A DNA stretch of 64,000 nt, taken from assembly GCA_011048995.1 (NCBI GenBank), contig DSCS01000064.1:7864-71863 (forward strand). The letters run 5' to 3'. Shown piece by piece: positions 13,252 through 54,925 of the stretch. A program made the translations under genes and the position numbers. Under the pieces are notes generated by a model. It saw only the letters and a program-made list of their open reading frames with translations, made no database searches and was not told the DNA's origin. This DNA is from Bacillota bacterium (GTDB lineage: Bacteria > Macinerneyibacteriota > Macinerneyibacteria > Macinerneyibacteriales > DSCS01). Within the stretch, counting starts at the first letter, position 1; every line of letters starts with the position of its first letter.

Positions 13252-13266
13252 CAGAGGGACTGTCAA
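13238..13266 (-). promoter_or_regulatory. Sigma70-type promoter for the M42 x3 / bEBP operon, interleaved with the divergent promoter
   Basis: Minus strand: TTGACA (13266-13261), 17 nt spacer, TAAAAT (13243-13238). Confidence 0.45.
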
Positions 13267-13291
13267 GATATTAAGCAAAAGGAGGACGATT

Positions 13292-14242: not shown

Positions 14243-14277
14243 AAGAGGCTTGCGGGAAAATCTTCCGCAAGCCTCTT
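14243..14277. terminator. Bidirectional stem-loop terminator between convergent genes
   Basis: 13-bp perfect stem AAGAGGCTTGCGG / CCGCAAGCCTCTT with a 9-nt loop. T-rich on the plus side. It overlaps the stop codon of the minus-strand gene. Confidence 0.6.
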
Positions 14278-24522: not shown

Positions 24523-25149
24523 TCAGTGAAGGGTAAAATTGTACGTGAAACCCCACCATACGCCAATGGGAACTCCATTGTTTTCTGCCGGTTTAAACTT
24601 TGCTTTGAGAGCGGCCCTCATCGCAGACTGATCCAGAGCCGGGGAAACACCCTTAAGCAACACGACATCTTTAACATTTCCGTCGACATCGACATAGACC
24701 TTGAGAGAAACACGGCCTTCCAGCTGTGCTTTTCGGGCCATTTCAGGATATTCCGGCATGGGTTTACTCAAAGTGACCGGAGCATTAGAATACGGAATAA
24801 AGGCATCAGGCGGAGGAATCGTTGTATCCACCGCTTTTTGATCCAAGTCAAGATCCGTATCCGCAATGGTCGCCTCTTCGTCGATTTCCTCATCAGGTTC
24901 GGCTTCTACGACCTGCTTAGGCTTCTGAATGACCTGAGGCTCCGTGGGCTCCTGAATCACTTCTGTCTGTTCGACAACATCGATGTTGACATCTCTGATC
25001 TTCTTAGGCCTGTATGGAGTAGGCTTTGGGCTGGGTATGGTCCACATCATCAGAAGCATCAGCGCAAAACTTGCAATGAGCGCTATCCGCGTAATCTGCG
25101 GAGACATGTCCTGCAGACGTCTTACATGCTGTTCTGCCATACTCATCAC
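24523..25149 (-). CDS. tonB: TonB-family energy transducer
   Basis: N-terminal TM anchor, Pro/Glu/Lys-rich spacer (PTPYRPKK..EP.EPQV.QKPKQ), and C-terminal TonB_C domain (YPE.A.....EG.V...V.V...G.V). Confidence 0.85.
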   Translation of the reverse strand: MMSMAEQHVRRLQDMSPQITRIALIASFALMLLMMWTIPSPKPTPYRPKKIRDVNIDVVEQTEVIQEPTEPQVIQKPKQVVEAEPDEEIDEEATIADTDLDLDQKAVDTTIPPPDAFIPYSNAPVTLSKPMPEYPEMARKAQLEGRVSLKVYVDVDGNVKDVVLLKGVSPALDQSAMRAALKAKFKPAENNGVPIGVWWGFTYNFTLH

Positions 25150-25568
25150 CTCCCGCCACTTTCAACATTCGCGCCCAAAACGACCCGGAGAGCCTGAGCC
25201 TCTTTCAATTCCTCAAAGACAGCATCCACGATGCCGTAACGGGCATTGCGGTCTGCTTTGATTTGAACGATCAACTCACCGTTGGTCTCAAACATCTTTT
25301 GGTCCATAAGATTGCTGACAAATTCCAAGGGGACAAATTTGTCCTCAATGGCCACTTTTCCCTGATCGGTGATCCAGATAATAGCCAAATTCTTCATTTG
25401 CAGCTTTTCAACTTTTTCAGCCAAGGGGAGTTGCAGATCGACACCGCTGTCTACCTTGAACACCGTAGTCACCATAAAGAATATGAGCAAAAGGAATGCT
25501 ATATCCGCCATAGATGAAGTCGGTATTTTGGCGTCAACGCCTTTCTTTTTTCGTTTGATAATTGCCAT
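25146..25568 (-). CDS. exbD: ExbD/TolR family protein
   Basis: 140 aa. SSMADIAFLLLIFFMVTT is the signature TM segment. Overlaps tonB by 4 nt. Confidence 0.88.
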   Translation of the reverse strand: MAIIKRKKKGVDAKIPTSSMADIAFLLLIFFMVTTVFKVDSGVDLQLPLAEKVEKLQMKNLAIIWITDQGKVAIEDKFVPLEFVSNLMDQKMFETNGELIVQIKADRNARYGIVDAVFEELKEAQALRVVLGANVESGGR

Positions 25569-25579
25569 GACTTCCCTCG

Positions 25580-25990
25580 CTATCGTTTCTTATTCACTTG
25601 TAACGAAATCTTTTTCATTCCGATTTTCTTCATTTCGTCGAAGATTCGCAACATCCAGTCATAACGGGCATTTTCATCTGTTTTGATAATAACGACCAGC
25701 TTGTCATTTTCTTTCATACGCGCTTCCACATAACCGGAAATCGTCGCCGTGTCCTGCATAAGCTGATCATCCACATAGATGTTTCCCAGACTGTTAATAA
25801 AAATCTTACACAGATTCTGTTTGGGGATCTTCGCCGAACCTTGAGCTTCTCCGGGTAACATGATAGAAAGGCCTTTATCATTAAAAAAACCGGTGGTTAC
25901 CATGAAAAAGATCAATAATAGGAATGCAATATCCGCCATGGATGAATCGGGGATATCTTCATTCGTTTTTAAACGGCTTTTCCTTAACAT
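25580..25990 (-). CDS. exbD: ExbD/TolR family protein (second copy)
   Basis: 136 aa. SSMADIAFLLLIFFMVTT and the K.D....Y..........K motif. Confidence 0.88.
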   Translation of the reverse strand: MLRKSRLKTNEDIPDSSMADIAFLLLIFFMVTTGFFNDKGLSIMLPGEAQGSAKIPKQNLCKIFINSLGNIYVDDQLMQDTATISGYVEARMKENDKLVVIIKTDENARYDWMLRIFDEMKKIGMKKISLQVNKKR

Positions 25991-26004
25991 GCGTCCCCCT
26001 TCAA

Positions 26005-26628
26005 TTATTTCGCTGCAGATTGAGTTTTCAGAATTTCAATAAATTCTCTTGTGCTTTCCTCGACACTCAAAATGATTGAAGAGACTTTAGCTGTAAAATA
26101 GTTGTAGAAAAGGTTAACAGGAATAGCAATTGCCAGACCTGAAGCTGTTGTGATCAACGCTTCTGAAATACCGGAAGCAACAACTGTCGCCTCAACACTT
26201 CCTGCCATGGCGATCGCATCAAAGGCATGGATCATCCCAAGAACAGTGCCGAGAAATCCGATCATAGGCGCGATGGTAAACCCGGTGACCAAGAAAGTCA
26301 GGTTCTTTTCCAGGAAAGCAAGCTCAGTGTTGGCTATGCTCTCAATTGATTTTTCAACTTCGACCATATTCCCGTTTGTCTGCTGGAATTTCAACAATCC
26401 GGCTCTCATAATGGAAGGCACCGGGCCGGGAGTCATCTCACACACCTCGATAGCTTCATCAACATTTCCCTGAACAAGGTGAGACTTGAATTCCACCAAG
26501 AATTTTTTTGCTGAACGTGTTGATTTGGCATAAACGATAAAACGTTCGATGATAACAAAGAGTGACATCAAAGCCACGACGGCGAGAAGATACATTACCG
26601 TTCCACCTCTTACAAAAAGTTCCATCAT
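26005..26628 (-). CDS. exbB: ExbB/MotA/TolQ family proton channel
   Basis: 207 aa, three TM segments. The conserved region APM.GFLGTV.GMI.AF and SEALITTA.GL.IAIP. Confidence 0.9.
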   Translation of the reverse strand: MMELFVRGGTVMYLLAVVALMSLFVIIERFIVYAKSTRSAKKFLVEFKSHLVQGNVDEAIEVCEMTPGPVPSIMRAGLLKFQQTNGNMVEVEKSIESIANTELAFLEKNLTFLVTGFTIAPMIGFLGTVLGMIHAFDAIAMAGSVEATVVASGISEALITTASGLAIAIPVNLFYNYFTAKVSSIILSVEESTREFIEILKTQSAAK

Positions 26629-35480: not shown

Positions 35481-37022
35481 ATGATATCCTTTTCTGTTGC
35501 AAAACAACACATTTTTGGTATAATCCTTTTTATGATTTCTTTTCAGTGGATATTGATTCTTCTTCAAGCTGAAGGCCTGCATGCTTCAGCTACGGGAGGG
35601 ACGGATCTTTTACGCCGTGTCCCTGATTTCTTTTCTTCGGTCCAATACTCTTTGGAAAGCCGTTTTTTGGCCCTTACCAACACGATATGGATCTCCCTTT
35701 TTATCTTTACCCTGACATTGGTCGCTCTTCTCATCCTGATCAGTTGCCGCTATCTTGATACGGTGAAATTCCGGACTCTCAGAAGTTTTTATATGGATTC
35801 CCCCTCACCTCTTATCGTTTTATTGGTCAATATTCTTGCCAGTCTTGCTTTTTTCCTGGGAGGATGGATTTTTGTTTTTTTTCTCAATATTCATAATTTA
35901 TCCAAAAAAGAACTCTATACCCTCTTGGTCTGGGCTCTTCTTATTTTTTTGCCTTTTGGCATCATCCTTTCCTCGCCGGGCTGGTTCGACGGATTGATCG
36001 CACAGACTCCGTCAGCTTTGCTAAGGGCTTATGACCGGTCGGATCTCTCGCATGTCCGCTTATACAGAGATGATCCCTTTATCCGTGAGAATCCCCTGTA
36101 TCTTTGCCTTTTGGCTCAACACAATCAATCTTCAGGAACGGCCTCCGGAAACAAACAAAATGCAGCCCTTCTTCAAAGAGCTTTATCCGGAGGATATACA
36201 TCGACAGCTGTCTATAATAATCTGGGGAACGCCATGCTGATGCTGAATTCATCTGATGCCGCTCTTTCCCATTATGACAGAGCCCTCTCGCGCGCTCCCG
36301 AAGACCCGATCGTCCTCTATAATATCTCGCAATACTATTTGTTTCGGAATGATTATGATACAGCTAAAGTCTTCTATGACAAGGCCTTCACCCTGAAAGG
36401 GCAGCTGGAACTCCCTGTCCTGGACTGGGAAAACATCATCCTGTTAGAAAAGACACTTGACCCCGATTTTGTCTGGCGTTTCTTTTTGGGCGAGACAGCT
36501 CGCCGGGAATTTCCGCAGAAAGCCTTTTCTCAGCCCCAGCTTTTCCTCTTTCCGGGAATTTCCGTTTTTCTTATTCTCCTTATTATTTTCCTCTTCCCGC
36601 TGACATCTAATTGGGCTTCATTTGTAACTTGTGAATCCTGCGGCATACCGATTATCCCCGGGTCTGCGACGTCATCCCATCAAGGCCGGATCTTTTGTTC
36701 CCGCTGCCATCTTATGCTCCCGGTTTACCTCAATCAAAAGCTGGGAAAAGATTCCATGGCGACAAAGATCGATACTTTGAAACATATACTCTTCAACCTG
36801 ATTATTCCCGGGGGCGGTTATATCTTAAAAGGACACACCCTTAAAGGCCTTTTTTGGCTTCTTCTCACAACAACGGTTCTGACTTTCAGTTTTTTTAATA
36901 AATATTTTCTCATTACTGATTATTCGCTTCTGTCTGCTTTTAACAGGACCCTGGATCTTTACCCCGCTGTCTCTTTTGTATCCACGGTGTTACTTCTCTT
37001 TTGTAAAGGACGGAAATCATGA
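35481..37022 (+). CDS. Polytopic membrane protein with central TPR repeats and a CxxC...CxxC zinc-ribbon
   Basis: 513 aa. At least 5 hydrophobic helices. TPR-like YNNLGNAMLMLNSSDAALSHYDRALSRAP / YNISQYYLFRNDYDTAKVFYDKA. CESCG-x18-CSRCH at aa 384-409. The start is uncertain (ATG 35481 or 35532). Confidence 0.6.
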   Translation: MISFSVAKQHIFGIILFMISFQWILILLQAEGLHASATGGTDLLRRVPDFFSSVQYSLESRFLALTNTIWISLFIFTLTLVALLILISCRYLDTVKFRTLRSFYMDSPSPLIVLLVNILASLAFFLGGWIFVFFLNIHNLSKKELYTLLVWALLIFLPFGIILSSPGWFDGLIAQTPSALLRAYDRSDLSHVRLYRDDPFIRENPLYLCLLAQHNQSSGTASGNKQNAALLQRALSGGYTSTAVYNNLGNAMLMLNSSDAALSHYDRALSRAPEDPIVLYNISQYYLFRNDYDTAKVFYDKAFTLKGQLELPVLDWENIILLEKTLDPDFVWRFFLGETARREFPQKAFSQPQLFLFPGISVFLILLIIFLFPLTSNWASFVTCESCGIPIIPGSATSSHQGRIFCSRCHLMLPVYLNQKLGKDSMATKIDTLKHILFNLIIPGGGYILKGHTLKGLFWLLLTTTVLTFSFFNKYFLITDYSLLSAFNRTLDLYPAVSFVSTVLLLFCKGRKS

Positions 37023-38350
37023 GCCCGCAAAGCATTCCTTTACAGTATGATACCTTTAAGAAAACAGTGGAAAATATCACCCTTCTGGAGAAGACCGGAA
37101 CCCTTGAAGTCGTCAACCGGGCCAATAGCCGCTCCTACTTTTTTTACATAAAAAAAGGAGAGATCATCTACATTGAGGAGCATCCTGTCCGTCTGGAAAA
37201 CAGGATCGGTGATTACCTCCTCAAACAGGGACTTATCAATGAGGAGCAACTCCGCCAGGCATTGGGAAAACAAAAAACGAATAAATATGAATTTTTGGGA
37301 GATCTGCTCCTGAAAGAAGGCTTTATTTCTCCCACGGAACTTCTGCAAAGCCTTACCCATCAAATTGAAAACGTTCTTTTTCTTATTTCACTTATCACCG
37401 ACGGCTTTTTTACTTTTGCTGAAGGCGATACCCCTGAAAGAATGCCTCAAATCCCTTATACGATTACTCTGAGCAATCTTCTTATGATTTTCCTCAACTC
37501 TTCTGAGATCATTGTCAAGATGCCTTTTCTGAAAGAGACCTTGAACCTGGGCTTTCAGGTGGACAAAGTCGCTGTCAACATCAACAAACTCAATCCCATG
37601 GAACAGTGGATCGTCGATGCCCTGCGCAGAGGCGCTACGGTGTTCGCTATTCTCGACCAGGCGAAAAATACCAACTACATCACCCTGATGTCTGTTATCT
37701 ACAGCCTCTATGACCGGAATATTATCAGAAACCCGGAACCCCAAGATTCTCCGGGGAAACAACCCCCTCCCCCCGGGCCTCTTCGACCGGGAAGAGAGTC
37801 TTCTTTTCCCAAGACATTCCCCGCTGACACTCCACCACCCCCAAAACTCCCGAAAGAAGAAAAAAAACGTCTTCCCTCCGAGCCCATCGAATTTGTCTAC
37901 AGGTCCGAACCGGAACCCTACCCGTCTAAACCCAAACAACAGCCCCAGCCCTCTTCTCAAAAAAATCCTGCAGAAAAGAGCCCTGCCCGGCCGGCCGCAC
38001 GACAGCCACTCCGCCAGACAAAAAAGAAAAAAACATACCGGCCCATGTCTTATGCTTTAGCGGACATTTTATCTTTTCTTGCGGTTCTTGTTTTATTGAT
38101 TCTCTATCTGGGAATGCTTCGCCCTCTGTTTAAAACTCCGGTGACGGAACACTTCCATCTCATGACACCGGAAACACTGGAAGAGGTCAAAATACAGCGC
38201 ACATTGAACATGGGAAAGACACTGACATCAGAAGAACTTCTGGAACGAAAAGACTTTTGGCAAAACTCTTTTTACTCAAAAAAAGGAGAAACCTTTTCCA
38301 GCGGTCCGGACGGAATACCCGATACCCCCGACGATTTTCGGGTCATGTAG
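37019..38350 (+). CDS. DUF4388-type protein with tandem MshEN-like c-di-GMP-binding motifs, Pro-rich linker, TM helix and C-terminal GspG-like pseudopilin module
   Basis: ATGA-coupled to the upstream gene. TGTLEV...FFYIKKGEIIY (DUF4388-like). RIGDYLLKQGLINEEQLRQALGKQ and FLGDLLLKEGFISPTELLQSLTHQ. aa 239-335 are P/K/Q-rich. TM YALADILSFLAVLVLLILYLG. C-terminal DFWQNSFYSKKGETFSSGPDGIPDTPDDF. Confidence 0.7.
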   Translation: MSPQSIPLQYDTFKKTVENITLLEKTGTLEVVNRANSRSYFFYIKKGEIIYIEEHPVRLENRIGDYLLKQGLINEEQLRQALGKQKTNKYEFLGDLLLKEGFISPTELLQSLTHQIENVLFLISLITDGFFTFAEGDTPERMPQIPYTITLSNLLMIFLNSSEIIVKMPFLKETLNLGFQVDKVAVNINKLNPMEQWIVDALRRGATVFAILDQAKNTNYITLMSVIYSLYDRNIIRNPEPQDSPGKQPPPPGPLRPGRESSFPKTFPADTPPPPKLPKEEKKRLPSEPIEFVYRSEPEPYPSKPKQQPQPSSQKNPAEKSPARPAARQPLRQTKKKKTYRPMSYALADILSFLAVLVLLILYLGMLRPLFKTPVTEHFHLMTPETLEEVKIQRTLNMGKTLTSEELLERKDFWQNSFYSKKGETFSSGPDGIPDTPDDFRVM

Positions 38351-39683
38351 GCGGCTTCTTTTCCCGATCATCTTCAATAGGGTTCATATGTCCGGCCATT
38401 TGAACGATTTCCCGTGAAAGTTTTCTTAAGCGTTCCTTCAAAATGACAGGGCAATCATAGATGCTCACGTCTTTTCCGATAATAATATCCTCTGCCAAAT
38501 CATAACAAGTGGGACATCCGCACATCCCGCAATTCAGCTGGGGGAGAAGGCGGTTGACTTCTTCGATCTTCTTCATCTTTTTCAATGCCTCCTTGATATC
38601 ACTATCCAGGGGGCTGATCGGGCGAGGCTTGAGGGGCATCCCGATCGAGCAGATTTCATCCCTGTCAAAGGGAAGGGGGATCTCGGGATTATCGGGTAGT
38701 TCTTCGGCAATCTTCTTGATCCTGTACTCTGCAATAAAAGCATCCTCTTTCGTAAAAACACCCCCGACGCAAGCATTATCACATGAATACATATCCACAA
38801 AATCAATATCCTTGACTTCTCCGTTTTCCAAACGCTCCAAAAACCTGATGGCATTCTGAATCCCATCAATGCGGAGATTGACCGATTCGTTAAACTTATT
38901 CTCCACATCGCCTAAAGCACTCCATCTGAGAGCAAATTTGGACGAAAGAATCGTTTCTTCCAATTCAAAATGCGCAAAATCTTGTTTTTCCATAATACGC
39001 CGGATCTCATTATACATGTCCCCCAGACTGAACACTCCGTTAAAGATCCGCTTCTCTTCCGCTTCAGGCTGATAGATAGCTACAACTTTGGCGGGACAGG
39101 GAGAGAGATAAAAAAGGCCTATCTCATCATCCAAAACCCCTGTTTGCTCTTTATAATTGTGTTTGATGTATTCTCCGGCGACATCCATCAAATTCCTTAA
39201 GGGAAGCAAATGATTGATCAGCGAGGGAAACTTCACCTGGATCAGCCGGACAACAGCCGGGCAATTGGTGGAGATATAGGGGCGGTATATATTTTTTCTG
39301 TCCTTAAGAAAGCTTTTTATAATATCCGAAATAATCACGCCGCCGGTGTCTACTCCTATAATATCGTCAAATCCCAATAATTTAAAAATACCCAGAATCT
39401 TTTTGACATTGTCGAATTTTCGGAATTGACCGAAAAAGACAGGAGAGTAGACTAAAAGTTTGTGTTTATATCCTGAAATCATCTCAAGGGCATCCACTTT
39501 GGCTGAAATGGCCTTCTGTGGACAGACACGCATGCATTCACCGCAATCAATGCATTTGTTTTCCAGGATAACAGCCTTCCCGTGGCGTATGCGCATGGCC
39601 TGTGTAGGGCAGACCCGGAGACAGCGTGTACACCCGTTACAACGGTTCTGATCCACATAAACAGCATGAAAATAATCGGACAT
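38343..39683 (-). CDS. [FeFe]-hydrogenase-like Fe-S protein: 2x[4Fe-4S] ferredoxin + H-cluster-type domain with altered motifs + C-terminal 'putative Fe-S cluster' domain
   Basis: CNGCTRCLRVCP and CIDCGECMRVCP. STNCPAV (vs TSCCP), SPCPAK (vs MPCxxK), MYSCDNACVGG (vs MxCxxGCxxGG). C-terminal CGMCGCPTC...DCP. Confidence 0.75.
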   Translation of the reverse strand: MSDYFHAVYVDQNRCNGCTRCLRVCPTQAMRIRHGKAVILENKCIDCGECMRVCPQKAISAKVDALEMISGYKHKLLVYSPVFFGQFRKFDNVKKILGIFKLLGFDDIIGVDTGGVIISDIIKSFLKDRKNIYRPYISTNCPAVVRLIQVKFPSLINHLLPLRNLMDVAGEYIKHNYKEQTGVLDDEIGLFYLSPCPAKVVAIYQPEAEEKRIFNGVFSLGDMYNEIRRIMEKQDFAHFELEETILSSKFALRWSALGDVENKFNESVNLRIDGIQNAIRFLERLENGEVKDIDFVDMYSCDNACVGGVFTKEDAFIAEYRIKKIAEELPDNPEIPLPFDRDEICSIGMPLKPRPISPLDSDIKEALKKMKKIEEVNRLLPQLNCGMCGCPTCYDLAEDIIIGKDVSIYDCPVILKERLRKLSREIVQMAGHMNPIEDDREKKPPT

Positions 39684-39692
39684 AATAGCTTT

Positions 39693-40136
39693 TTATCCTT
39701 TCTCAATATAAAAGGTCATCGTGACTTCCGTCCCGTTATCGATTTCACTGGCGATCTCCATCTCATCACTGTTGCGTTTCATATTCGGCAGTCCCATACC
39801 TGCTCCAAAGCCCATTTCACGCACTTCAGGACTGGCTGTCGAATACCCCTCTTCCATGGCCTTATCGATATCAGGGATTCCGGGGCCGCGATCTGTTACT
39901 ACGACTTTGACCTTAGACTCATCCATATAAAAAGCGATGGTACCACTGTAGGCATGAGCCACCACATTCAATTCTCCTTCATAGGCCGCCACAAGAACAC
40001 GGCGGATAAAGGTAGGCGGAAGCCCTAATTTTTTCAAATATTCTTTGATCATACCGGAAGATTCTCCTGCATTGAGGAAATCTCCTCCTTTGATTTTAAA
40101 GTCCATCAGCAATTCCATATCTTCGCCCCTAATCAT
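39693..40136 (-). CDS. GHKL-type ATPase, anti-sigma-factor/RsbW-like serine kinase fold
   Basis: 147 aa. N-box-like AAYEGELNVVAHA, G1 TDRGPGIPD, G2 GFGAGMGLPN. The start overlaps the upstream stop by 8 nt. Confidence 0.75.
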   Translation of the reverse strand: MIRGEDMELLMDFKIKGGDFLNAGESSGMIKEYLKKLGLPPTFIRRVLVAAYEGELNVVAHAYSGTIAFYMDESKVKVVVTDRGPGIPDIDKAMEEGYSTASPEVREMGFGAGMGLPNMKRNSDEMEIASEIDNGTEVTMTFYIEKG

Positions 40137-40680
40137 TCAATTGCAGTTCAGCCAATCCGCTTTCGATATCTTCTTCCAGAGCCCCGAGAACCTGAGGAGT
40201 ACTGAGGTCAATATCTCCCATGATTTCCCGGACGATCCGGGTATCAAACTCATATTTGTCTTTCCCTTTTTTCACCATGACATAAAGATCGATTTCGGGA
40301 TGTCCCACAATCAGCGAAATAATCGTGTCTGTCATATTCCCTAAAGGCGGACGGTCAATATGGGAAAGCTTCATGGTCACAGTGACCCGGGTATATGATC
40401 CCTTTTCTGACATAATGGAAAAACCGCCGTCACAAGCCTCTGCGGTCTGAATGAAAAGAGGAATTCCCAGCCCCCACCCTTTGCCTTTTTTTGTGGAAAA
40501 CAACGGGTCCATGGCTTTTCCAATCATCTCTGTATCCATTCCTTTCCCGTTATCCACAACAGTGATCGTAATGGTATCGTTTTGTGTATCAATATCGATA
40601 AATAAATCCAAATGCCAGGCTCCTGCGGCAATGCCGTTTTCCATGATATCCATAATATGCATAGAAAGTTCAGGCATCAT
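40129..40680 (-). CDS. GHKL-type ATPase domain protein with a ~90-aa C-terminal extension
   Basis: MDIMENGIAAGA (N-box), VVDNGKGM (G1), GWGLGIPL (G2). The ATG at 40680/40677 overlaps the PHP gene stop. The track ORF start at 40794 lies inside the PHP gene. Confidence 0.7.
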   Translation of the reverse strand: MMPELSMHIMDIMENGIAAGAWHLDLFIDIDTQNDTITITVVDNGKGMDTEMIGKAMDPLFSTKKGKGWGLGIPLFIQTAEACDGGFSIMSEKGSYTRVTVTMKLSHIDRPPLGNMTDTIISLIVGHPEIDLYVMVKKGKDKYEFDTRIVREIMGDIDLSTPQVLGALEEDIESGLAELQLND

Positions 40681-41407
40681 AGCAGACTCCCCGGCCTTCT
40701 CTGCCTTGTAATGCCATGCGAAACTCTTCAAAGGAAGGTGTTTGCATCTTATATGTTGTAAAAGCGCATCCGACATCTTCCAAAAGATGGGCATCCGAAT
40801 TGGTCACAAAGGGCCAGTGCCCGTATCGGGCATATTTTTTTCTGGCCTGCTCCAGAGACAGATGCCGGGAGATCTCGATCCCGTCGATCTTCGAATCCGA
40901 AGGGATAAATCCCAATTGGGAGATCACACTGTAGGAATCCCTGTCAATGTGTGAAAAAAGCACAACGCCGCCCCGGCCATGCACCTCTTCAATGATTTCT
41001 TCCATTTCCATTTCAACCGATTGCAAAAGTAATTTATCCTCCATTTTGATAATCCGGTCTTCGGCATCTACAACGACCTGATCTCCAAAATATTCCGGAT
41101 TATTTGGAATATCAGGCAGATAGCTGTAAAGAAAATCCCCCATGGCTTCGGCCTTTTCTCGGTTTCCGAAAAGCGTCAGCAAATGAGTTTCCGAAGCGCT
41201 CTGTATTTCCAACCCGAAAAAAAGGGCGATTTTTTCCAGGGCCGCATCCTCCAAAGCCTTCAAATTCCCCGCGCTGTTATGGTCTGCAAGAGCAATAATA
41301 TCCATTTTCTTTTCAAGGGCCTTTTTCACAATCGCCGCGGGGGACATATCCAGCCCCCCGCAAGGCGATAAAACAGAATGAATATGAAGGTCGGCCTTCA
41401 GGTACAT
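40670..41407 (-). CDS. PHP-domain metal-dependent phosphoesterase
   Basis: ADLHIHSVLSPCG, LADHNS, FSHIDR and NSDAH: the four His/Asp-rich PHP motifs. Confidence 0.85.
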   Translation of the reverse strand: MYLKADLHIHSVLSPCGGLDMSPAAIVKKALEKKMDIIALADHNSAGNLKALEDAALEKIALFFGLEIQSASETHLLTLFGNREKAEAMGDFLYSYLPDIPNNPEYFGDQVVVDAEDRIIKMEDKLLLQSVEMEMEEIIEEVHGRGGVVLFSHIDRDSYSVISQLGFIPSDSKIDGIEISRHLSLEQARKKYARYGHWPFVTNSDAHLLEDVGCAFTTYKMQTPSFEEFRMALQGREGRGVCYDA

Positions 41408-41740
41408 CTACTTCACAGAAGGGTAAAGCAAGCCGGCGCAGGTGAAGGCGTCCTTTTCCGTGGCAAAAAGAGGAACGCCGACTTTTTCGGCCGCTTCCAC
41501 AAGCCCGGCCTCCGGCTCCACGCCGTTCACCACTACGATCCCCGCGATATCTTTAGCTGTCGCGACTGCAATCACATTTTTATGACGTTGAATGGTAAAC
41601 CAAAGGCATCCGCTGCAGGCATGGGCCAGGACATCACTCAACAGATCCCCGGCGTAGCCTCCCTGAATCTCTGTTTTTTCCCATTCACACTGTGTCAGGG
41701 GTTTCAACCCCAGTTTATCAGCAGCCTCTTTTAAAGTCAT
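41408..41740 (-). CDS. DRTGG-domain protein
   Basis: 110 aa. GDLLSDVLA, then a nucleotide-binding-like fold I.AV.TAKDIAGIVVVNG and GVPLFAT. It abuts the PHP gene with no intergenic nucleotides. Confidence 0.75.
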   Translation of the reverse strand: MTLKEAADKLGLKPLTQCEWEKTEIQGGYAGDLLSDVLAHACSGCLWFTIQRHKNVIAVATAKDIAGIVVVNGVEPEAGLVEAAEKVGVPLFATEKDAFTCAGLLYPSVK

Positions 41741-41743
41741 CCT

Positions 41744-42112
41744 CTACACCTCACTTGCAGGGCGGTTCTTACACGGGCGTATGCCGTTTTTGTAAAGAAT
41801 GCCGCTTGTTTCAAACATGGTCTTTTTCGTTACGATCATCGGGATATTGAGCCTTTTACGCGCGACTTCCATAACATCATCCGAAGGCTGTTTCCCCCGG
41901 ATGAAGATAATGGCTGTAATCCCTAAAATTTCCGCTACGCGAATGACCTGCAGGGTCACCGTGCCGGTAATCAGTAAAGTATCGCCCTCTGTCAACGCCA
42001 GGACATCGCTCAACAGATCCGCACTGTACGCAGATGAGATCTCAATCTCCAGGTCATGTTCTCCGGCGATCACTTCCCCATCCAGCAAGTCAATTATTTC
42101 CTTGATCTTCAT
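41744..42112 (-). CDS. DRTGG-domain protein
   Basis: 122 aa. ADLLSDVLA, LLITG, ITAIIFIRG, NIPMIVT. Confidence 0.78.
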   Translation of the reverse strand: MKIKEIIDLLDGEVIAGEHDLEIEISSAYSADLLSDVLALTEGDTLLITGTVTLQVIRVAEILGITAIIFIRGKQPSDDVMEVARKRLNIPMIVTKKTMFETSGILYKNGIRPCKNRPASEV

Positions 42113-42127
42113 GGCCGCTCCTTCAGT

Positions 42128-44191
42128 TTATCGTGACAGCATAATAACATCAACGCGTCTGTTATTCGCCCTTCCTTTAGCCGTTTTATTTGTGTCCACA
42201 GGCATATCGGGACCGTAGGCAACAGAGACAATACGGGCAGAGTCGATTCCGCCTGCAACGAGATATTTCTTTACCATCTCAGCACGGTCGCGGGAAAGCT
42301 TCTCATTCACACTCCGGGCCCCTACATTATCAGTATGCCCCTCTACCCGGACAGTAGACTGAGGATAGGAGACCAATGTCGAGATGATTTTATCCAACTC
42401 TTCTTTTTGAGCTGCCGTCAATGTATACGCATTCTCTTCAAAACGAAGGCGCGCCATAAGAAGCATGGCCGGAATCGGAGGCATCTCCTGTGATATGGGC
42501 GGTTCCACCAACTGAGTCGCCTCTACCGGTACCGTTACAATCAAGCTCTCACCCGTATTCCCTGCTCTGTCTGTCAGCCTGGCAAAGATATTAAGGGAAT
42601 CTCCCTTTTCCGGATATGTTCCGTCAGCTAAAATCCCGCTCCATTCAAAACGGTCCTTATGCCCTTCATAAATGATCTCATGAATTGTTTCTGTTCCCTT
42701 GGTGACAACGATTTGAGTCTTTGCGACATCCACGTTTTCATGGGGAGTCACAGTAAAGGTCAATCCCTCCCCGGGTATCAGTTTATCGGGCATCACGTTG
42801 AGTGTGACTTCCAGAGTCTTGGAACGCACGGCGACGAAAGCTTTATTGCTGCTTCCTTTATTTCCGTAACGGTCCTTCACCGTCATCACCGCTGCATATG
42901 TGCCGTCAGGTACCACGGCGCCTTTATTGTCTTTTCCGTCCCAGGTCATAAAGGGCGGAAGGCTCTTTTTGCCTTTGAAACGGCGAACCTCTTTCCCTCC
43001 CTCATCGGTAAGAGACAAGGTCCAGCTCCTGATGATCTCATTGTCTTTGCTTTCTGCCAGGATACGCACCTGGTCTTTGATACCATCTCCGTTGGGAGAA
43101 AGCCATTCGCTTTCCGCCATGATCCGGACAACCGGAGGAATCTTATACGCTGATGCCATGGTCTTCTCTCCTGTATAGGCCAAAGAAAAGGCCATGGATG
43201 AGCCGGTATACTCACCTGCAAGGGCATACCCGGCATTGACTTCGAAACCGCTGAAACGAAACCCCAGTCCGGCTGTGATCTGTCCCTCTCCGTCGTAGAG
43301 AGGATCAGTCAGCGCTCCTTCATAGAGTGCCGCCCCGTCTTTATAAAAAGTGTTCTGCAGATAACCGGCACGAAGGGCTATCTTCTTGTTCAGAAACCAC
43401 TCTTCCGCCCCCACATGCAGGGCCGTGGAATTAGCATGATTCATCAAATAATCAGCTCCCAGAGAAAAGCTGGCGAGGCCCATCAGCTGATGTTCCATCT
43501 TCAAGCCCAAGCCGGCATTGATTCCCATTGTGACATCCATGGGAGCAATAACATCGGTGAGAGTCAACCCCATGTTAAAAGAAGATCCTGACTCATTCAC
43601 CGGAACGACAGCTAACAGGGAAACATCCCCCCCCATCGCTGAATCCACATAAGTATCCGGAGCGGATGAACTCTGATACTCCTCTTCAAGAGAAGGCATG
43701 ATATATTTGCCTGTAAAGGCAAACGCCAAATCAAAACCGCCCATATTGACTTTTCGTGTCAGGGAAAGGGCCGCCATATCAATAATGCAATCGTCGGGAT
43801 CACTTTCATCGATAGCGTTCGTGGCTACATAAGGAAGAAGAAGAGACGTACGGCTTACGGTCACATTGGCTGTAAACCAATCCATCAGCGGAAAGGTCAC
43901 GCCGAAATACATGTTTTTATAAAGGTCAAGATCCGTATTCAATTCTTTCATAAACAGCCCCATGCCGCCGAAGGCATCCACCCCGTAAGAAAAAGCATAT
44001 CCGGCCGGGTTTTGCAGATTTCCGGAGCTCCGGCTCAGCCCGATTCCGGCACCGCCCATCCCTAAAGATGTCGCATCTGTCAGGCCGATACGGCTGTTTT
44101 CATAAAACGCAGAAGCCGGGTTCTCTCCATCAAGCGCCCAGGCAGAAACCCCCAAGGCCAGCATCAAAACGAACATTATGAATCTCTTCAT
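42128..44191 (-). CDS. Outer-membrane protein: N-terminal beta-barrel + two FlgD-Ig-like domains + C-terminal OmpA peptidoglycan-binding domain
   Basis: Signal peptide. Alternating beta-strand pattern to aa ~340. SPNGDGIKD and DGTY motifs (FlgD_ig-like) twice. C-terminus VEGHTDNVG....N..LS..RA..V..YL...G......V.YG...P.......GRA.NRRV. Confidence 0.8.
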   Translation of the reverse strand: MKRFIMFVLMLALGVSAWALDGENPASAFYENSRIGLTDATSLGMGGAGIGLSRSSGNLQNPAGYAFSYGVDAFGGMGLFMKELNTDLDLYKNMYFGVTFPLMDWFTANVTVSRTSLLLPYVATNAIDESDPDDCIIDMAALSLTRKVNMGGFDLAFAFTGKYIMPSLEEEYQSSSAPDTYVDSAMGGDVSLLAVVPVNESGSSFNMGLTLTDVIAPMDVTMGINAGLGLKMEHQLMGLASFSLGADYLMNHANSTALHVGAEEWFLNKKIALRAGYLQNTFYKDGAALYEGALTDPLYDGEGQITAGLGFRFSGFEVNAGYALAGEYTGSSMAFSLAYTGEKTMASAYKIPPVVRIMAESEWLSPNGDGIKDQVRILAESKDNEIIRSWTLSLTDEGGKEVRRFKGKKSLPPFMTWDGKDNKGAVVPDGTYAAVMTVKDRYGNKGSSNKAFVAVRSKTLEVTLNVMPDKLIPGEGLTFTVTPHENVDVAKTQIVVTKGTETIHEIIYEGHKDRFEWSGILADGTYPEKGDSLNIFARLTDRAGNTGESLIVTVPVEATQLVEPPISQEMPPIPAMLLMARLRFEENAYTLTAAQKEELDKIISTLVSYPQSTVRVEGHTDNVGARSVNEKLSRDRAEMVKKYLVAGGIDSARIVSVAYGPDMPVDTNKTAKGRANNRRVDVIMLSR

Positions 44192-44206
44192 AATTCCCCC
44201 TTTCAG

Positions 44207-44998
44207 TCATTTTCCTAAAAGTAATCTTTCAGCTAAAATATATGGTAAAGGCAGTTCGGACAATTTTTTCTGTGTCTTTCTGACATCGTAGTCAATACGG
44301 TAAAGCTGCACGGTTTTTTCTTCGGTATCCCAGATTAAAAAAGAAGGCAGATAATTTCCGTCACGGGGCTGTCCCACACTTCCGGGATTGATAATATAAG
44401 CCGAAAGGTCGTCCAAAACCCATTTCCGGTCTTCAGGCTCCTGCCCGCTCACCCGCTCTCCGTTGACTTTTTTGATATATAAATAGGGCTTATGGGTATG
44501 AGCCACAAAAGTCAGTTTCCCGGTGTGGGGAAATGATTCGCGGGCCATCTCACTTGAATCCAGATAGTACCAATTCTCAGTCATCTGGGGCGTCGAGTGA
44601 TAAAAAGCAGCTCCGTTAAAACGCGCCGAGTAGGGAAAAGACTTGATAAACCGTTGATGAGAGGGGTTTAGCATCTTTTTTGTCCAGATAATAGCTTCAT
44701 ATGCAATGCGGTTAAAATAACTGATATCAGTGAAATTTATGACCGCGGCATCATGATTGCCCATAATCAGGTCTACGGAAAAACCCGACGCCAGAGTCCG
44801 CTCTTCATCGGAAAGGGATACTCCGGGATCTCCTTTCATCGCCATAAACAGTTCCAGGCATTTCACCGGGTCAGGGCCGTATCCCACGACATCTCCCAAG
44901 TAAATAATCCGCCGCACCTTTTCCTGCTGCAGCATCTCTAAAACGCCAACGAATGCTTCAAAATTTCCGTGTATATCGGCCAAGACGGCTATTCGCAT
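44207..44998 (-). CDS. Calcineurin-like metallophosphoesterase (YfcE/MJ0936-type)
   Basis: MRIAVLADIHGN, YLGDVVGYG, GNHD and AHTH motifs. Confidence 0.85.
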   Translation of the reverse strand: MRIAVLADIHGNFEAFVGVLEMLQQEKVRRIIYLGDVVGYGPDPVKCLELFMAMKGDPGVSLSDEERTLASGFSVDLIMGNHDAAVINFTDISYFNRIAYEAIIWTKKMLNPSHQRFIKSFPYSARFNGAAFYHSTPQMTENWYYLDSSEMARESFPHTGKLTFVAHTHKPYLYIKKVNGERVSGQEPEDRKWVLDDLSAYIINPGSVGQPRDGNYLPSFLIWDTEEKTVQLYRIDYDVRKTQKKLSELPLPYILAERLLLGK

Positions 44999-54676: not shown

Positions 54677-54744
54677 GGCTGAATAATAACAGGGCGAAAA
54701 AAAAAGACAAGTTTTCATTGACCCTTTTTATCAAAGGCTTATAC

Positions 54745-54895
54745 TTTCATCGTTCAGAAGGGAAACGGGTGAGAATCCCGTGCTGCCCCGCAACTGTAAA
54801 CGGAACGAAAACCCGGACGAAGCCACTGTGTGTGATACACGGGAAGGCGGGCAAGTAGGCAGCCGTAAGCCAGGACACCCAATGAACAGAGGCTA
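54745..54895 (+). promoter_or_regulatory. Cobalamin (B12) riboswitch
   Basis: AAGGGAAACGGGTGAGAATCCCGTGCTGCCCCGCAACTGTAA core, GCCACTG....GGGAAGGC element, and B12-box AGCCAGGACACC. It sits directly upstream of a TonB-dependent receptor. The boundaries are approximate. Confidence 0.9.
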
Positions 54896-54925
54896 TCACA
54901 TTGAACCAACTCGAGGGGGTTGACT

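What the first reader, a model, noticed from the sequence alone, without database searches (positions are those of the whole stretch)
38343..42112. Orphan six-gene [FeFe]-hydrogenase-like sensory/phospho-signalling module (DRTGG x2 - PHP - GHKL x2 - HydA-like Fe-S protein) with no hydrogenase genes nearby
Six genes are packed with gaps of 0-9 nt or overlaps of 8-11 nt. They encode:
- two DRTGG-domain proteins that share an (A/G)DLLSDVLA motif
- a PHP phosphoesterase
- two different GHKL ATPases, one RsbW/anti-sigma-kinase-like and one with a 90-aa C-terminal extension
- a 446-aa protein with two ferredoxin CxxCxxCxxxCP motifs, a hydrogenase H-domain-like core and a C-terminal CGMCGCPTC...C Fe-S domain

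In the H-domain the four cluster-ligating Cys positions appear to be retained: STN-C141-P, SP-C196-PAK, MYS-C301-DNA-C305-VGG. The first Cys of the canonical TSCCP motif, which sits near the active site, is Asn. Sets of such accessory genes occur next to NADH-dependent/bifurcating [FeFe] hydrogenase operons in anaerobes and are, to my knowledge, functionally uncharacterised.

Here the set stands alone. It is flanked by an OmpA-type gene and a convergent c-di-GMP/pseudopilin-like gene, and there are no HydABC/NuoEF or HydEFG genes in 64 kb. My working inference is that an H2 or redox signal read by the Fe-S protein drives GHKL-kinase phosphorylation of the DRTGG proteins, and that the PHP enzyme acts as the opposing phosphatase. 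That would be an analogue of partner switching without STAS or sigma components.
Basis: partly seen in the sequence, partly recalled or inferred. Interest (0 to 1): 0.8.

Follow-up and report, generated by a model that had tools for sequence, protein, structure and literature searches.

The report
Detached hydrogen-sensor gene cassette (HydS module)
Six tightly packed genes encode a sensor-type [FeFe] hydrogenase (group D HydS) with five little-studied helper proteins; this known but uncharacterised cassette sits here away from any hydrogenase, in a rearranged rare variant, and gene fusions elsewhere name three helpers as likely HydS partners.

Summary
Six co-oriented minus-strand genes at 38343-42112 encode two DRTGG proteins, a PHP phosphoesterase, two GHKL ATPases, and a 446-aa protein with 2x[4Fe-4S], an H-domain and a C-terminal Fe-S domain. 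All four H-cluster cysteines are kept, and Asn replaces the proton-relay Cys.

It is not a new kind of system. The Fe-S protein is a group D (M2e) putative sensory [FeFe] hydrogenase of the TamHydS family. The other five genes are the set that normally accompanies it beside NADH-dependent HydABC hydrogenases.

- **Not rare as an orphan.** 16 of 44 well-flanked loci from other genomes also lack an adjacent hydrogenase.
- **Sister lineages differ.** The same gene order lies next to a HydABC hydrogenase in one and next to an NAD-linked formate dehydrogenase in another.
- **What is new.** A rare clade (Ca. Mcinerneyibacteriales and relatives; one 50%-identity cluster among 302 scoring E<=1e-30) has the order Da-Db-PHP-K1-K2-HydS and a remodelled H-cluster pocket.
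- **Fusion evidence.** Recurrent K2-HydS, DRTGG-HydS, HydS-DRTGG and DRTGG-K2 fusions point to one physical sensor complex.

Phosphotransfer, the PHP substrate, and whether this genome has any hydrogenase or HydEFG remain untested. Verdict: new variant of a known kind, moderate interest.

The parts
41744..42112 (-). DRTGG protein 'Da' (122 aa); first gene of the cassette
   Evidence: Pfam DRTGG 3.6e-7. It carries the conserved motifs S-A-D-L-L-S-D-V-L-A, LLTG and RGK. It is 91% identical to the L095 orthologue, against 73-76% for flanking genes. Da-type domains occur fused to the HydS N-terminus (P0459, P0462) and to K2 (L068).
42118..42124 (-). Ribosome-binding site GAAGGAG for Da, inside the 15-nt spacer after the OmpA-like gene
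   Evidence: Read directly from the sequence. The spacer leaves no room for a promoter, and the promoter scan shows none there.
41408..41740 (-). DRTGG protein 'Db' (110 aa)
   Evidence: Pfam DRTGG 1.5e-6. The D-L-L-S motif is conserved in at least 95% of orthologues. Db is followed directly by PHP in 70 of 71 loci. Db-type domains occur fused to the HydS C-terminus in six clusters. A Db-type gene heads a hydrogenase-plus-hydGEF operon in L098.
40670..41407 (-). PHP-family phosphoesterase (245 aa)
   Evidence: Pfam PHP 5e-8 and PHP_C 3.5e-9. The metal-site motifs DLHIHS, DHN and SDAH are conserved. Nearest named relatives are the TrlF N-terminal PHP domain (70 bits), CehA/McbA and Ppl, and EndoQ among solved structures.
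40129..40680 (-). GHKL ATPase 'K1' (183 aa): Bergerat fold plus a conserved C-terminal domain of about 80 aa (SHIDRxPLG motif)
   Evidence: Pfam HATPase_c 6.8e-11 and HATPase_c_3. The N-box, DNGxGM and GLGIPL motifs are conserved. AF2 pLDDT is 88.7. Foldseek full-length matches are to MutL, PMS2, MLH1, TopoVI-B and SMCHD1, while histidine-kinase CA domains cover only about 100 columns. In other genomes it lies between hydC and hydD.
39693..40118 (-). RsbW/SpoIIAB-like GHKL protein 'K2' (141 aa; alternative ATG at 40136 gives 147 aa)
   Evidence: Pfam HATPase_c_2 6.3e-12. NCBIfam spIIAB 2e-15, below the family cutoff. PDB SpoIIAB 4e-7 and RsbW 1e-3. The N, G1 and G2 boxes are intact. It directly precedes HydS in 74 of 74 loci. 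A K2-HydS fusion, P0393, is seen in 6 members on at least 10 contigs. The RBS AGGGG lies at 40126-40130.
38343..39683 (-). Group D (M2e) putative sensory [FeFe] hydrogenase HydS, divergent subclade (446 aa)
   Evidence: - Domains: two Fer4 motifs, Fe_hyd_lg_C 2.2e-21 and PF04060 FeS 2.8e-10.
- Cluster ligands kept: Cys141/196/301/305, K199, and C385/388/393/411.
- Pocket changes: C299->N140, M353->S194, M497->Y299, Tam E252->V260, Tam E289->D297.
- Similarity: 327 bits to the Thermoanaerobacterium group D orthologue, against 30 bits to a group A H-domain.
- Fold: match to [FeFe] hydrogenases.
42128..44998 (-). Context only: the OmpA-like gene (42128-44191) and the Metallophos gene (44207-44998). 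Both are co-oriented and lie 15 nt apart, and they probably share the cassette's transcript
   Evidence: Pfam. This arrangement is conserved in all subclade-I relatives, down to 57% HydS identity.

Best explanation
**What it is.** This is an intact, selectively maintained copy of the regulatory cassette built around a group D (M2e) putative H2-sensing [FeFe] hydrogenase, HydS. In most genomes that cassette lies directly upstream of an NADH-dependent, HydABC-type (electron-bifurcating) [FeFe] hydrogenase.

**Lineage.** The window comes from a relative of a Candidatus Mcinerneyibacteriales MAG. Its clade has the cassette rearranged to Da-Db-PHP-K1-K2-HydS. In this lineage the cassette has moved to the end of a rib-nusB-metallophos-ompA gene string.

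**Proposed mechanism**
1. HydS carries an H-cluster and binds or slowly turns over H2. This is inferred from retained ligands and from the behaviour of TamHydS.
2. HydS forms one physical complex with the RsbW/SpoIIAB-like ATPase K2 and the two DRTGG proteins. This is inferred from near-invariant adjacency and from recurrent K2-HydS, Da-HydS, HydS-Db and Da-K2 fusions.
3. H2-dependent conformational change in HydS alters K2's ATP-dependent action on the DRTGG proteins. That action could be phosphorylation of the conserved DLLS serine or nucleotide-dependent binding and release. PHP, which is always next to Db, reverses or processes the signal. This step is pure inference.
4. K1 is a MutL/TopoVI-B-like ATPase normally encoded between hydC and hydD. 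It couples the sensor to the NuoE/NuoF-type module of the target enzyme. This is inferred from gene position.

**Output.** The output is most likely control, at the protein level, of a NuoEF-type hydrogenase or formate dehydrogenase encoded elsewhere in this genome. The cassette contains no DNA-binding component.
For: **Identity**
- Domain architecture and conserved ligands.
- 36-40% full-length identity to more than 5000 homologues with the same architecture.
- The fold matches [FeFe] hydrogenases.
- The literature definition of M2e/group D: no PAS domain, a C-terminal Cx2Cx4Cx16C motif, C299 lost, and M353->Ser/Thr (PMC8163306).

**Canonical context**
- Da-K2-S-Db-P followed by C-K1-d-B-A, with adjacency counts K2->S 74/74, Da->K2 70/72, S->Db 72/72 and Db->P 70/71.

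**Same order next to target enzymes in sister lineages**
- Next to a group A6 HydABC hydrogenase in L088/L089.
- Next to Fdh-alpha with NuoE/F subunits and Rex in L090/L093/L094.

**Maintained function when detached**
- The position is conserved across relatives with 57-100% HydS identity.
- Against the closest relative (L095), dN is 0.07-0.18 with saturated dS.
- Da, K2 and HydS are the slowest-evolving genes locally.

**Physical complex**
- Fusions are reproducible across independent assemblies, including a cultured isolate.

**Individual components**
- K2 has intact ATP-binding boxes and its closest solved relatives are SpoIIAB and RsbW.
- K1's fold is described.
- TamHydS has sensor-like kinetics, and H2 induces secondary-structure change without reducing the C-terminal cluster (PMC8163306, PMC13104023).
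Against: - No phosphorylation, complex formation or H2 response has been shown for any of these accessory proteins.
- The target enzyme was not found. Whether this genome has any hydrogenase, formate dehydrogenase or HydEFG maturase is unknown, because only 64 kb are visible.
- This clade has lost residues proposed to form the group D proton path (Tam E252->Val, S249->Leu). The E252V variant of TamHydS is strongly impaired (PMC10407848), so H2 chemistry here may differ or be absent.
- PHP's nearest relatives are nucleases or nucleotide phosphoesterases, not protein phosphatases.
- There is no STAS partner, PP2C or sigma factor, so the partner-switching analogy rests on K2 alone.
Confidence: 0.55

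Rival explanations
1. The cassette would be a self-contained, hydrogenase-independent phospho-signalling device. Both GHKL proteins would be kinases that phosphorylate the DRTGG proteins in response to H2 or redox state, and PHP would be the opposing protein phosphatase.
For: - K2 is SpoIIAB/RsbW-like with intact ATP-binding motifs.
- Both DRTGG paralogues share a serine conserved in at least 95% of orthologues, in a D-L-L-S motif that is not the generic DRTGG signature.
- Da-K2 and DRTGG-HydS fusions exist.
- PHP-family protein tyrosine phosphatases exist (CpsB, YwqE; from my own knowledge).
- No hydrogenase lies within 64 kb.
Against: - K1 lacks any kinase-specific feature. It resembles GHL ATPases over its full length and normally lies inside the hydrogenase structural operon.
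- PHP resembles TrlF/EndoQ-type enzymes.
- The same cassette is adjacent to HydABC or FDH in sister lineages.
- Detachment is common in the family, at 16 of 44 loci.
Confidence: 0.2
2. The HydS-like protein in this clade no longer holds a [2Fe] subcluster. Like the eukaryotic Nar1/NARFL proteins, it would act as an Fe-S based redox (ferredoxin/NADH) or O2/CO sensor. The cassette would then report redox state rather than H2.
For: - All 16 clade members differ from 104 other group D sequences at positions that are otherwise invariant. Tam E252 becomes V/P, G251 becomes D, E289 becomes D, the P324 position becomes L/M/I, the M497 position becomes Y, and the C299 position becomes N.
- No maturase genes occur in the window.
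- In one sister lineage the neighbour is a formate dehydrogenase, not a hydrogenase.
Against: - All four H-cluster cysteines and the CN-binding Lys (K199) are invariant in the clade. Retention would not be expected if the site were empty.
- The same remodelled pocket occurs in subclade II, which sits directly beside a group A6 hydrogenase.
- A Db-type gene heads a hydrogenase-plus-hydGEF operon in L098, although the lineage of that MAG is unresolved.
Confidence: 0.1
3. The accessory proteins are assembly, repair or chaperone factors for NuoEF-type Fe-S/flavin enzymes. The GHKL proteins would act as Hsp90- or MutL-like ATP-driven clamps, and PHP and DRTGG as cofactor-processing or adaptor proteins. 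HydS would be a scaffold or quality-control subunit rather than a signal sensor.
For: - K1 is embedded between structural genes hydC and hydD and has a GHL-like fold.
- There is no DNA-binding or classical output domain.
- The cassette co-occurs with both hydrogenase and FDH complexes that share NuoE/F modules.
Against: - TamHydS behaves like a sensor: low turnover, low Km for H2 and CO tolerance (PMC8163306).
- K2 is of the anti-sigma-kinase type.
- Many HydABC operons function without these genes (from my own knowledge of T. maritima and A. woodii HydABC; not tested here).
- The cassette persists when detached from any target genes.
Confidence: 0.1
4. HydS is simply a low-activity catalytic ferredoxin-linked hydrogenase used for H2 evolution or uptake, and the neighbouring genes are unrelated regulators.
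For: TamHydS catalyses reversible H+/H2 interconversion at low rates (PMC8163306).
Against: - The proton-relay Cys is absent, and the group D substitute path is also lost here.
- Near-invariant gene adjacency and fusions tie the neighbours to HydS.
Confidence: 0.05

Closest known systems
TamHydS, the group D (M2e) putative sensory [FeFe] hydrogenase of Thermoanaerobacter mathranii (PMC8163306, PMC10407848, PMC13104023)
   Same: - The architecture matches: 2x[4Fe-4S], an H-domain and a C-terminal 4-Cys Fe-S domain, with no PAS domain.
- C299 is lost and M353 is Ser.
- Full-length identity to Thermoanaerobacteraceae and Thermoanaerobacterium orthologues is about 38-39%.
- The same neighbouring gene families are present; the paper mentions only a 'histidine kinase-like ATPase'.
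   Different: - Asn replaces Ala at the C299 position.
- Tam E252->Val, S249->Leu, E289->Asp, the P324 position->Leu, and the M497 position->Tyr.
- The C-terminal motif is Cx2Cx4Cx17C.
- The gene order is rearranged, with K1 inside the cassette.
- There is no adjacent HydABC.
Group C sensory [FeFe] hydrogenases (T. maritima HydS, R. albus HydS, Thermoanaerobacterium HfsB)
   Same: - They are H-domain proteins with a disrupted proton path and a C-terminal Fe-S domain.
- They are proposed to report H2 to an adjacent Ser/Thr kinase. Deleting hfsB has a regulatory phenotype (PMC5707799).
   Different: - Group C carries a PAS domain; none is present here.
- The partner genes are different.
SpoIIAB-SpoIIAA-SpoIIE and RsbW-RsbV-RsbU partner switching
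   Same: K2 is a single-domain HATPase_c_2 protein whose closest solved relatives are SpoIIAB and RsbW. Small single-domain partner proteins and a phosphoesterase are encoded alongside it.
   Different: - There is no STAS domain, no PP2C and no sigma factor in the cassette.
- The partners are DRTGG domains, and the phosphoesterase is of the PHP type.
- K2 scores far below the spIIAB and rsbW family cutoffs.
HoxBC-HoxJ-HoxA regulatory [NiFe] hydrogenase H2 sensor of Cupriavidus necator (as summarised in PMC5707799)
   Same: The logic is the same: a low-activity hydrogenase acts as an H2 receptor bound to a kinase-type transducer.
   Different: - The metal site and protein families are unrelated.
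- HoxJ is a true histidine kinase paired with a response regulator, whereas here there is no HisKA domain and no response regulator.
DRTGG domain of CBS-pyrophosphatase (PDB 3L2B/3L31)
   Same: It is the only solved relative of Da, and a weak one (E=0.3). It is a regulatory or dimerisation module.
   Different: - Here DRTGG is a stand-alone protein.
- The family's GDR and TGG residues are replaced (LLTG..., RGK).
- A subfamily-specific D-L-L-S-D-V-L motif is added.

Membership tests
[FeFe] hydrogenase, group D / M2e (HydS) | H-domain fold (Fe_hyd_lg_C) | tested here: met
   Pfam 2.2e-21. The AF2 model (pLDDT 89.5) matches only [FeFe] hydrogenases in the top 50 PDB hits, TM 0.60-0.67.
[FeFe] hydrogenase, group D / M2e (HydS) | Four Cys ligating the H-cluster, plus the CN-binding Lys | tested here: met
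   C141, C196, C301, C305 and K199 align to CpI C300, C355, C499, C503 and K358. All are invariant in 120 homologues.
[FeFe] hydrogenase, group D / M2e (HydS) | N-terminal 2x[4Fe-4S] and a C-terminal Cx2Cx4Cx16C domain, with no PAS domain | tested here: met
   Two CxxCxxCxxxCP motifs. PF04060 2.8e-10. C385/388/393/411, with 17 rather than 16 spacer residues. No PAS hit.
[FeFe] hydrogenase, group D / M2e (HydS) | Proton-relay Cys (C299) absent; M353 replaced by Ser/Thr | tested here: met
   N140 and S194. The criteria come from PMC8163306.
[FeFe] hydrogenase, group D / M2e (HydS) | Group-D-specific proton path: E252, E289, S249 and D265 (TamHydS numbering) | tested here: not met
   V260, D297, L257 and D273. 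Only D265 is kept, and E289 changes conservatively. E252 is E in 103 of 104 other group D sequences but V/P in all 16 clade members. The protein is therefore filed as a divergent subclade, not a typical member.
[FeFe] hydrogenase, group D / M2e (HydS) | Phylogenetic placement inside group D against groups A-G | tested here: inconclusive
   Only score comparisons were made: 327 bits to a Thermoanaerobacterium group D orthologue against 30 bits to a group A H-domain. The next-nearest 50%-identity clusters share the architecture. No group B, C, E, F or G sequences were at hand for a tree.
[FeFe] hydrogenase, group D / M2e (HydS) | An H-cluster is actually present and H2 reactivity occurs; HydE/F/G are present in the genome | not testable with these tools
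   Only 64 kb of the genome is visible and it holds no maturases. Confirmation needs the full MAG and biochemistry.
HydS accessory cassette beside HydABC | Presence of Da, K2, Db, PHP and K1 orthologues | tested here: met
   Reciprocal phmmer to Thermoanaerobacterium orthologues gives 83, 145, 46, 134 and 119 bits.
HydS accessory cassette beside HydABC | Canonical order Da-K2-S-Db-P, adjacent to HydC-K1-HydD-HydB-HydA | tested here: not met
   The order here is Da-Db-P-K1-K2-S, seen in 0 of 80 sampled genomes. No Hyd genes lie in the 64 kb.
RsbW/SpoIIAB partner-switching module | HATPase_c_2 kinase with N, G1 and G2 boxes | tested here: met
   K2: Pfam 6.3e-12, conserved motifs, and SpoIIAB as best PDB hit.
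RsbW/SpoIIAB partner-switching module | STAS-domain antagonist, PP2C phosphatase and sigma-factor target | tested here: not met
   None occurs in the cassette. A SpoIIE-type PP2C (4342-6060) and an ECF sigma (15418-16023) exist 22-34 kb away but are not linked.
Two-component histidine kinase | HisKA/DHp domain with a phospho-acceptor His, and a cognate response regulator | tested here: not met
   K1 and K2 contain only the catalytic ATP-binding domain. There is no HisKA or Response_reg hit in the cassette.
GHL ATPases (MutL / TopoVI-B / MORC-like), for K1 | Bergerat fold followed by a transducer-like domain | tested here: inconclusive
   Foldseek full-length alignments (about 190-200 columns) are to MutL, PMS2, MLH1, TopoVI-B and SMCHD1. 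However, TM is only 0.50-0.57 and rmsd is 6-9 A.
PHP phosphoesterase superfamily | N-terminal HxH and further His/Asp metal ligands | tested here: met
   PHP and PHP_C hits. DLHIHS, DHN and SDAH are conserved in 75 orthologues. The substrate was not testable.

The most novel reading that the evidence does not exclude
In this candidate-phylum lineage the cassette may have become an autonomous gas or redox signalling device that no longer serves a hydrogenase. A HydS variant with a rebuilt pocket (Asn/Asp-Val-Glu/Tyr in place of Ala/Gly-Glu/Leu) would be tuned to a different ligand or threshold. It would form a complex with an RsbW-like ATPase and two DRTGG adaptors. Its output would be wired elsewhere, for example to the co-transcribed OmpA-like envelope protein. 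If so, it would be a new type of partner-switching system, built from DRTGG and PHP parts instead of STAS and PP2C.
Probability: 0.12. Interest if true: 0.8.

Novelty: new variant of a known kind. Interest (0 to 1): 0.5.

Why it matters
Group D [FeFe] hydrogenases are widespread in anaerobes: this search found more than 5000 homologues at 90% clustering. They have been studied spectroscopically since 2020 as presumed H2 sensors. How they signal is an explicit open question; PMC13104023 (2026) calls identification of the interaction partners critical.

This locus and its relatives name concrete candidates. The candidates are the RsbW-like ATPase K2 and the two DRTGG proteins, supported by near-invariant adjacency and by recurrent natural fusions with HydS. 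K1 appears to be the link to the HydC/HydD module.

The cassette also sits beside an NAD-linked formate dehydrogenase in one lineage. Its target may therefore be NuoEF-type bifurcating enzymes in general, not only hydrogenases.

The window's clade is a natural variant in which the proposed group D proton path is replaced. That makes it useful for testing what the pocket residues do.

H2 sensing controls fermentation product balance in biofuel strains and in syntrophic and gut communities, so a defined signalling pathway would have practical use.

Tried and rejected
1. **Genome-wide orphan test.** I searched with the HydA of the nearest hydrogenase-linked relative and looked up the 69%-identical hit P0260. 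It lies in a different MAG (GCA_964634755.1).
   - Tetranucleotide correlation could not tie that MAG to the window's lineage. Same-genome controls give 0.97, L098 against the window gives 0.78, and L098 against unrelated low-GC loci gives 0.93.
   - The question is left open.
2. **Genome-contig scan.** Close relatives had to be found through exact-protein look-ups instead.
3. **Host guess.** I first guessed a spirochaete or termite-gut origin from DUF4388, DUF3996 and the sample names. A supplement search found nothing. A named 80%-identical K1 orthologue and a fully syntenic MAG point instead to Ca. Mcinerneyibacteriales.
4. **The DLLSDVL motif.** I suspected it was just the generic DRTGG signature. 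Alignment to the CBS-PPase DRTGG domain places it N-terminal of the family's GDR/TGG residues, so I rejected that idea. The alignment is weak.
5. **dN/dS.** Synonymous sites are saturated against every available relative, so only upper bounds (<=0.1-0.15) could be obtained for some genes.
6. **Literature.** Searches combining DRTGG or PHP with hydrogenase found no functional work. Reviews of multimeric hydrogenases and a Hydrogenedentota survey do not discuss these genes.
7. **hfsC/hfsD identities.** My recollection of these as a PP2C/anti-sigma kinase pair could not be confirmed from PMC5707799, so I did not use it.
8. **Complex prediction.** It was not possible with the tools, which predict monomers only.

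Full report

Yes. Six minus-strand ORFs occupy 38343-42112. Pfam assigns them as follows:

| Gene | Coordinates | Pfam domains |
|---|---|---|
| Da | 41744-42112 | DRTGG |
| Db | 41408-41740 | DRTGG |
| PHP | 40670-41407 | PHP + PHP_C |
| K1 | 40129-40680 | HATPase_c plus an extension of about 80 aa |
| K2 | 39693-40118 or 40136 | HATPase_c_2 |
| HydS | 38343-39683 | two 4Fe-4S ferredoxin motifs, Fe_hyd_lg_C (2.2e-21), PF04060 Fe-S domain |

The spacings between genes are 3, 0, -11, +10 (or -8) and +9 nt.

K2 most likely starts at 40118. An AGGGG ribosome-binding site lies 7 nt upstream, and two gene callers give 141 aa.

- TSCCP becomes STN-C141-P.
- MPCxxK becomes SP-C196-PAK.
- MxCxxxC becomes MYS-C301-DNA-C305.

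These residues and K199 are invariant in 120 homologues. An AlphaFold model (pLDDT 89.5) matches only [FeFe] hydrogenases among the top 50 PDB hits, with TM 0.60-0.67.

The 64-kb window holds no HydA/B/C/D, NuoE/F or HydE/F/G gene. I checked every real ORF of 150 aa or more by Pfam or from the gene table. I also ran phmmer with HydA/B/C/D seeds against all ORFs of 50 aa or more.

There are two corrections to the flanks:
- The convergent downstream gene is a PatA_N/DUF4388 protein.
- The cassette has no promoter room of its own. Only 15 nt, containing a GAAGGAG ribosome-binding site, separate it from the OmpA-like gene. Gaps of 9-15 nt continue upstream through Metallophos, nusB and the riboflavin genes.

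**2. What is it?**

The 446-aa protein belongs to a large family. More than 5246 clusters at 90% identity score E<=1e-10, and nearly all share this architecture at about 430-450 aa.

The architecture and two hallmark substitutions define the M2e subclass, or group D, of [FeFe] hydrogenases (PMC8163306). The features are:
- no PAS domain;
- a C-terminal four-Cys motif;
- loss of the proton-relay Cys299;
- Met353 replaced by Ser or Thr.

TamHydS from Thermoanaerobacter mathranii is the characterised member. It is a slow, reversible enzyme with a low Km for H2, and it is regarded as a putative sensor. Its signalling partners were still unknown in 2026 (PMC13104023).

The window protein scores 327 bits against a Thermoanaerobacterium group D orthologue and 30 bits against a group A H-domain.

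**3. The usual genomic setting**

A scan of species-representative genomes returned 80 loci. I mapped them with phmmer seeds and checked a reference locus with Pfam.

The dominant arrangement has two parts. The first is Da-K2-HydS-Db-PHP. After a median gap of 144 nt comes HydC(NuoE)-K1-HydD-HydB(NuoF)-HydA.

Adjacency is nearly absolute:

| Pair | Loci with direct adjacency |
|---|---|
| K2 -> HydS | 74/74 |
| Da -> K2 | 70/72 |
| HydS -> Db | 72/72 |
| Db -> PHP | 70/71 |

K1 normally belongs to the hydrogenase structural operon. It was found in 47 loci with Hyd genes, and in only one short contig without HydA/B/C; that contig still carried HydD.

Literature searches found no functional study of them.

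**4. Is 'orphan' unusual?**

No. Among the 44 loci with at least 6 kb on both sides of the module, 28 contain HydA/B/C genes and 16 do not.

What is unusual is the gene order here, Da-Db-PHP-K1-K2-HydS. It occurs in 0 of the 80 sampled genomes. It is confined to a clade that collapses into a single 50%-identity cluster, out of 302 representatives scoring E<=1e-30. The next-best representative is only 39% identical.

An 80%-identical K1 orthologue is named Candidatus Mcinerneyibacteriales bacterium. Its MAG (GCA_035391585.1) is syntenic with the window across the 20.5 kb compared.

Within the clade there are three settings:
1. **Window and relatives** down to 57% HydS identity. The cassette always follows rib-nusB-Metallophos-OmpA, the downstream genes vary, and no hydrogenase lies within about 10 kb.
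2. **A 57%-identical lineage.** The cassette lies directly downstream of HydC-HydD-HydB-NuoE-NuoF-HydA. The HydA matches the group A6 model at 839 bits against a cutoff of 765.
3. **A 51-53% lineage.** The cassette is convergent with an operon of NuoE, a HydD-like gene, HydB, NuoE, Fdh-alpha (TIGR01591, 875 bits against a cutoff of 666) and NuoF. A Rex gene is adjacent.

The detached cassette is under purifying selection. Against L095, dN is 0.07-0.18 while dS is saturated. Da, K2 and HydS are 90-91% identical, against 73-76% for the flanking OmpA-like and Metallophos genes.

Whether the organism has a hydrogenase or HydEFG elsewhere could not be determined.

**5. A remodelled active-site pocket**

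All 16 clade members differ from 104 other group D sequences at positions that are otherwise invariant or nearly so.

| Position | Clade (16 sequences) | Other group D (104 sequences) |
|---|---|---|
| C299 (CpI numbering) | Asn or Ser | Ala, Ser or Phe |
| P324 (CpI numbering) | Leu, Met or Ile | Pro in 104/104 |
| TamHydS G251-E252 | Asp-Val or Asp-Pro | Gly 104/104, Glu 103/104 |
| Residue after E252 | Glu or Asp | Ser, Ala, Gly or Thr |
| TamHydS E289 | Asp | Glu in 104/104 |
| M497 (CpI numbering) | Tyr | Leu, Gln, Asn or Arg |

E252 and E289 are the proposed start of the group D proton path, and E252V cripples TamHydS (PMC10407848). The change is clade-wide, including the hydrogenase-adjacent lineage, so it is not a consequence of detachment.

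**6. Evidence on mechanism**

*Gene fusions.* Ten of the 150 best 50%-identity representatives that were clearly longer than the typical ~430-450 aa were scanned with Pfam, and nine of the ten proved to be fusions:
- **K2-HydS:** P0393, 607 aa. Six member sequences lie on at least 10 contigs, in Ca. Fermentithermobacillaceae.
- **Da-type DRTGG-HydS:** P0459 and P0462. P0459 includes a cultured isolate.
- **HydS-Db-type DRTGG:** P0379, P0391, P0454, P0518, P0448 and P0449.
- **Da-K2:** one further in-frame fusion occurs in L068.

No fusions involving PHP or K1 were seen. Fusions are good predictors of physical association. I therefore infer that HydS, K2, Da and Db form one complex.

*K2.* It has intact N, G1 and G2 boxes. 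Its closest solved relatives are SpoIIAB and RsbW.

*Da and Db.* They share a D-L-L-S motif whose Asp and Ser are conserved in at least 95% of orthologues. On a weak alignment, the motif is not the generic DRTGG signature.

*K1.* Over its full length its model resembles MutL, TopoVI-B and SMCHD1. Only the core resembles histidine-kinase CA domains. The scores are modest.

*PHP.* It keeps its metal ligands, but its nearest relatives are TrlF-, CehA- and EndoQ-type enzymes.

**7. Best explanation and its limits**

I conclude that this is a detached, rearranged but functional copy of the group D HydS regulatory cassette.

- **Shown:** the identity of the parts, their conservation, their usual and alternative neighbours, and the fusions.
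- **Inferred:** HydS holds an H-cluster and responds to H2. K2 acts on the DRTGG proteins in an ATP-dependent way. PHP resets the signal. K1 couples to the NuoE/HydD module. The output acts at the protein level on a NuoEF-type hydrogenase or formate dehydrogenase encoded elsewhere.

It is weak for K1 and PHP, and the 'orphan, hydrogenase-independent' framing is not supported.

The main alternative worth keeping is that this clade's HydS has changed or lost its H2 chemistry.

**8. Novelty and score**

The family and its hydrogenase linkage are known. The following appear to be undescribed:
- the accessory proteins as fusion-supported HydS partners;
- the link to formate dehydrogenase;
- the clade with a rebuilt pocket and a six-gene order.

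I rate it a new variant of a known kind, with interest 0.5.

Noticed in passing
window 4342-6978 (-): A 572-aa SpoIIE-type PP2C phosphatase lies immediately downstream of two tandem single-domain cyclic-nucleotide-binding proteins (151 and 154 aa). This may be a cNMP-controlled phosphatase module, unrelated to the cassette.
   Followed up: no
window 10122-13347 (-): Three tandem paralogues of M42 (TET/FrvX-type) aminopeptidase. This fits a peptide- or amino-acid-fermenting lifestyle.
   Followed up: no
window 54714-56866 (+): A cobalamin riboswitch (87 bits) lies directly upstream of a TonB-dependent receptor, probably a BtuB-like B12 importer. TonB and ExbB genes at 24523-26628 confirm a diderm cell.
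   Followed up: no
window 9123-10091 (-): A sigma-54 activator of only 322 aa, with an AAA+ core and lid but no N-terminal receiver or sensor domain detected.
   Followed up: no
window 17353-20590 (-): A DAO-family FAD oxidoreductase lies next to a 699-aa protein with Fer2_4, Pyr_redox_2, Fer4 and BFD-like [2Fe-2S] domains. The pair looks opine- or sarcosine-oxidase-like, with unknown substrate.
   Followed up: no
window 7736-8533, 14277-14996, 15418-16023 (-): Two FecR-domain proteins and an ECF-type sigma-70 factor. This sigma is the only sigma factor gene identified among the ORFs scanned in the window, and it lies 22 kb from the RsbW-like K2.
   Followed up: no
window 38343-38350: The 3' ends of HydS (minus strand) and the convergent PatA_N/DUF4388 gene (37019-38350, plus strand) overlap by 8 bp. 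No terminator-like hairpin lies between them.
   Followed up: partly
L098 3623-17850 (GCA_964634755.1): A Db-type DRTGG gene heads a hydrogenase operon. The order is Db, HydC, HydD, a 1025-aa HydB fused to a GltD-like Pyr_redox_2 domain, NuoE, NuoF, HydA, two TM1266-like genes, HydG, an 86-aa ORF, an aspartase-like lyase, HydE and HydF. There is no HydS, K2 or PHP nearby.
   Followed up: partly
L090, L093, L094 (about 11.3-18.7 kb in L090): An apparent hybrid NuoEF-type formate dehydrogenase operon with two NuoE and two NuoF-type subunits plus a HydD-like protein. It mirrors the double-set hydrogenase operon of L088, with Fdh-alpha in place of HydA, and Rex lies alongside.
   Followed up: partly
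L056, L069, L031, L053, L062: Reduced versions of the cassette exist. Da-HydS occurs without K2 in Anaerosolibacter, K2-HydS alone in Oceanispirochaeta, Da-K2-HydS in Cloacimonadales, and HydS alone in a Selenomonadales MAG.
   Followed up: partly
L097 10683-11936 (JGI 3300009778): In this close relative the HydS gene is called 29 aa shorter (417 aa) and with only a weak Fer4 hit. This may reflect a different start or a sequencing error at the 5' end.
   Followed up: no
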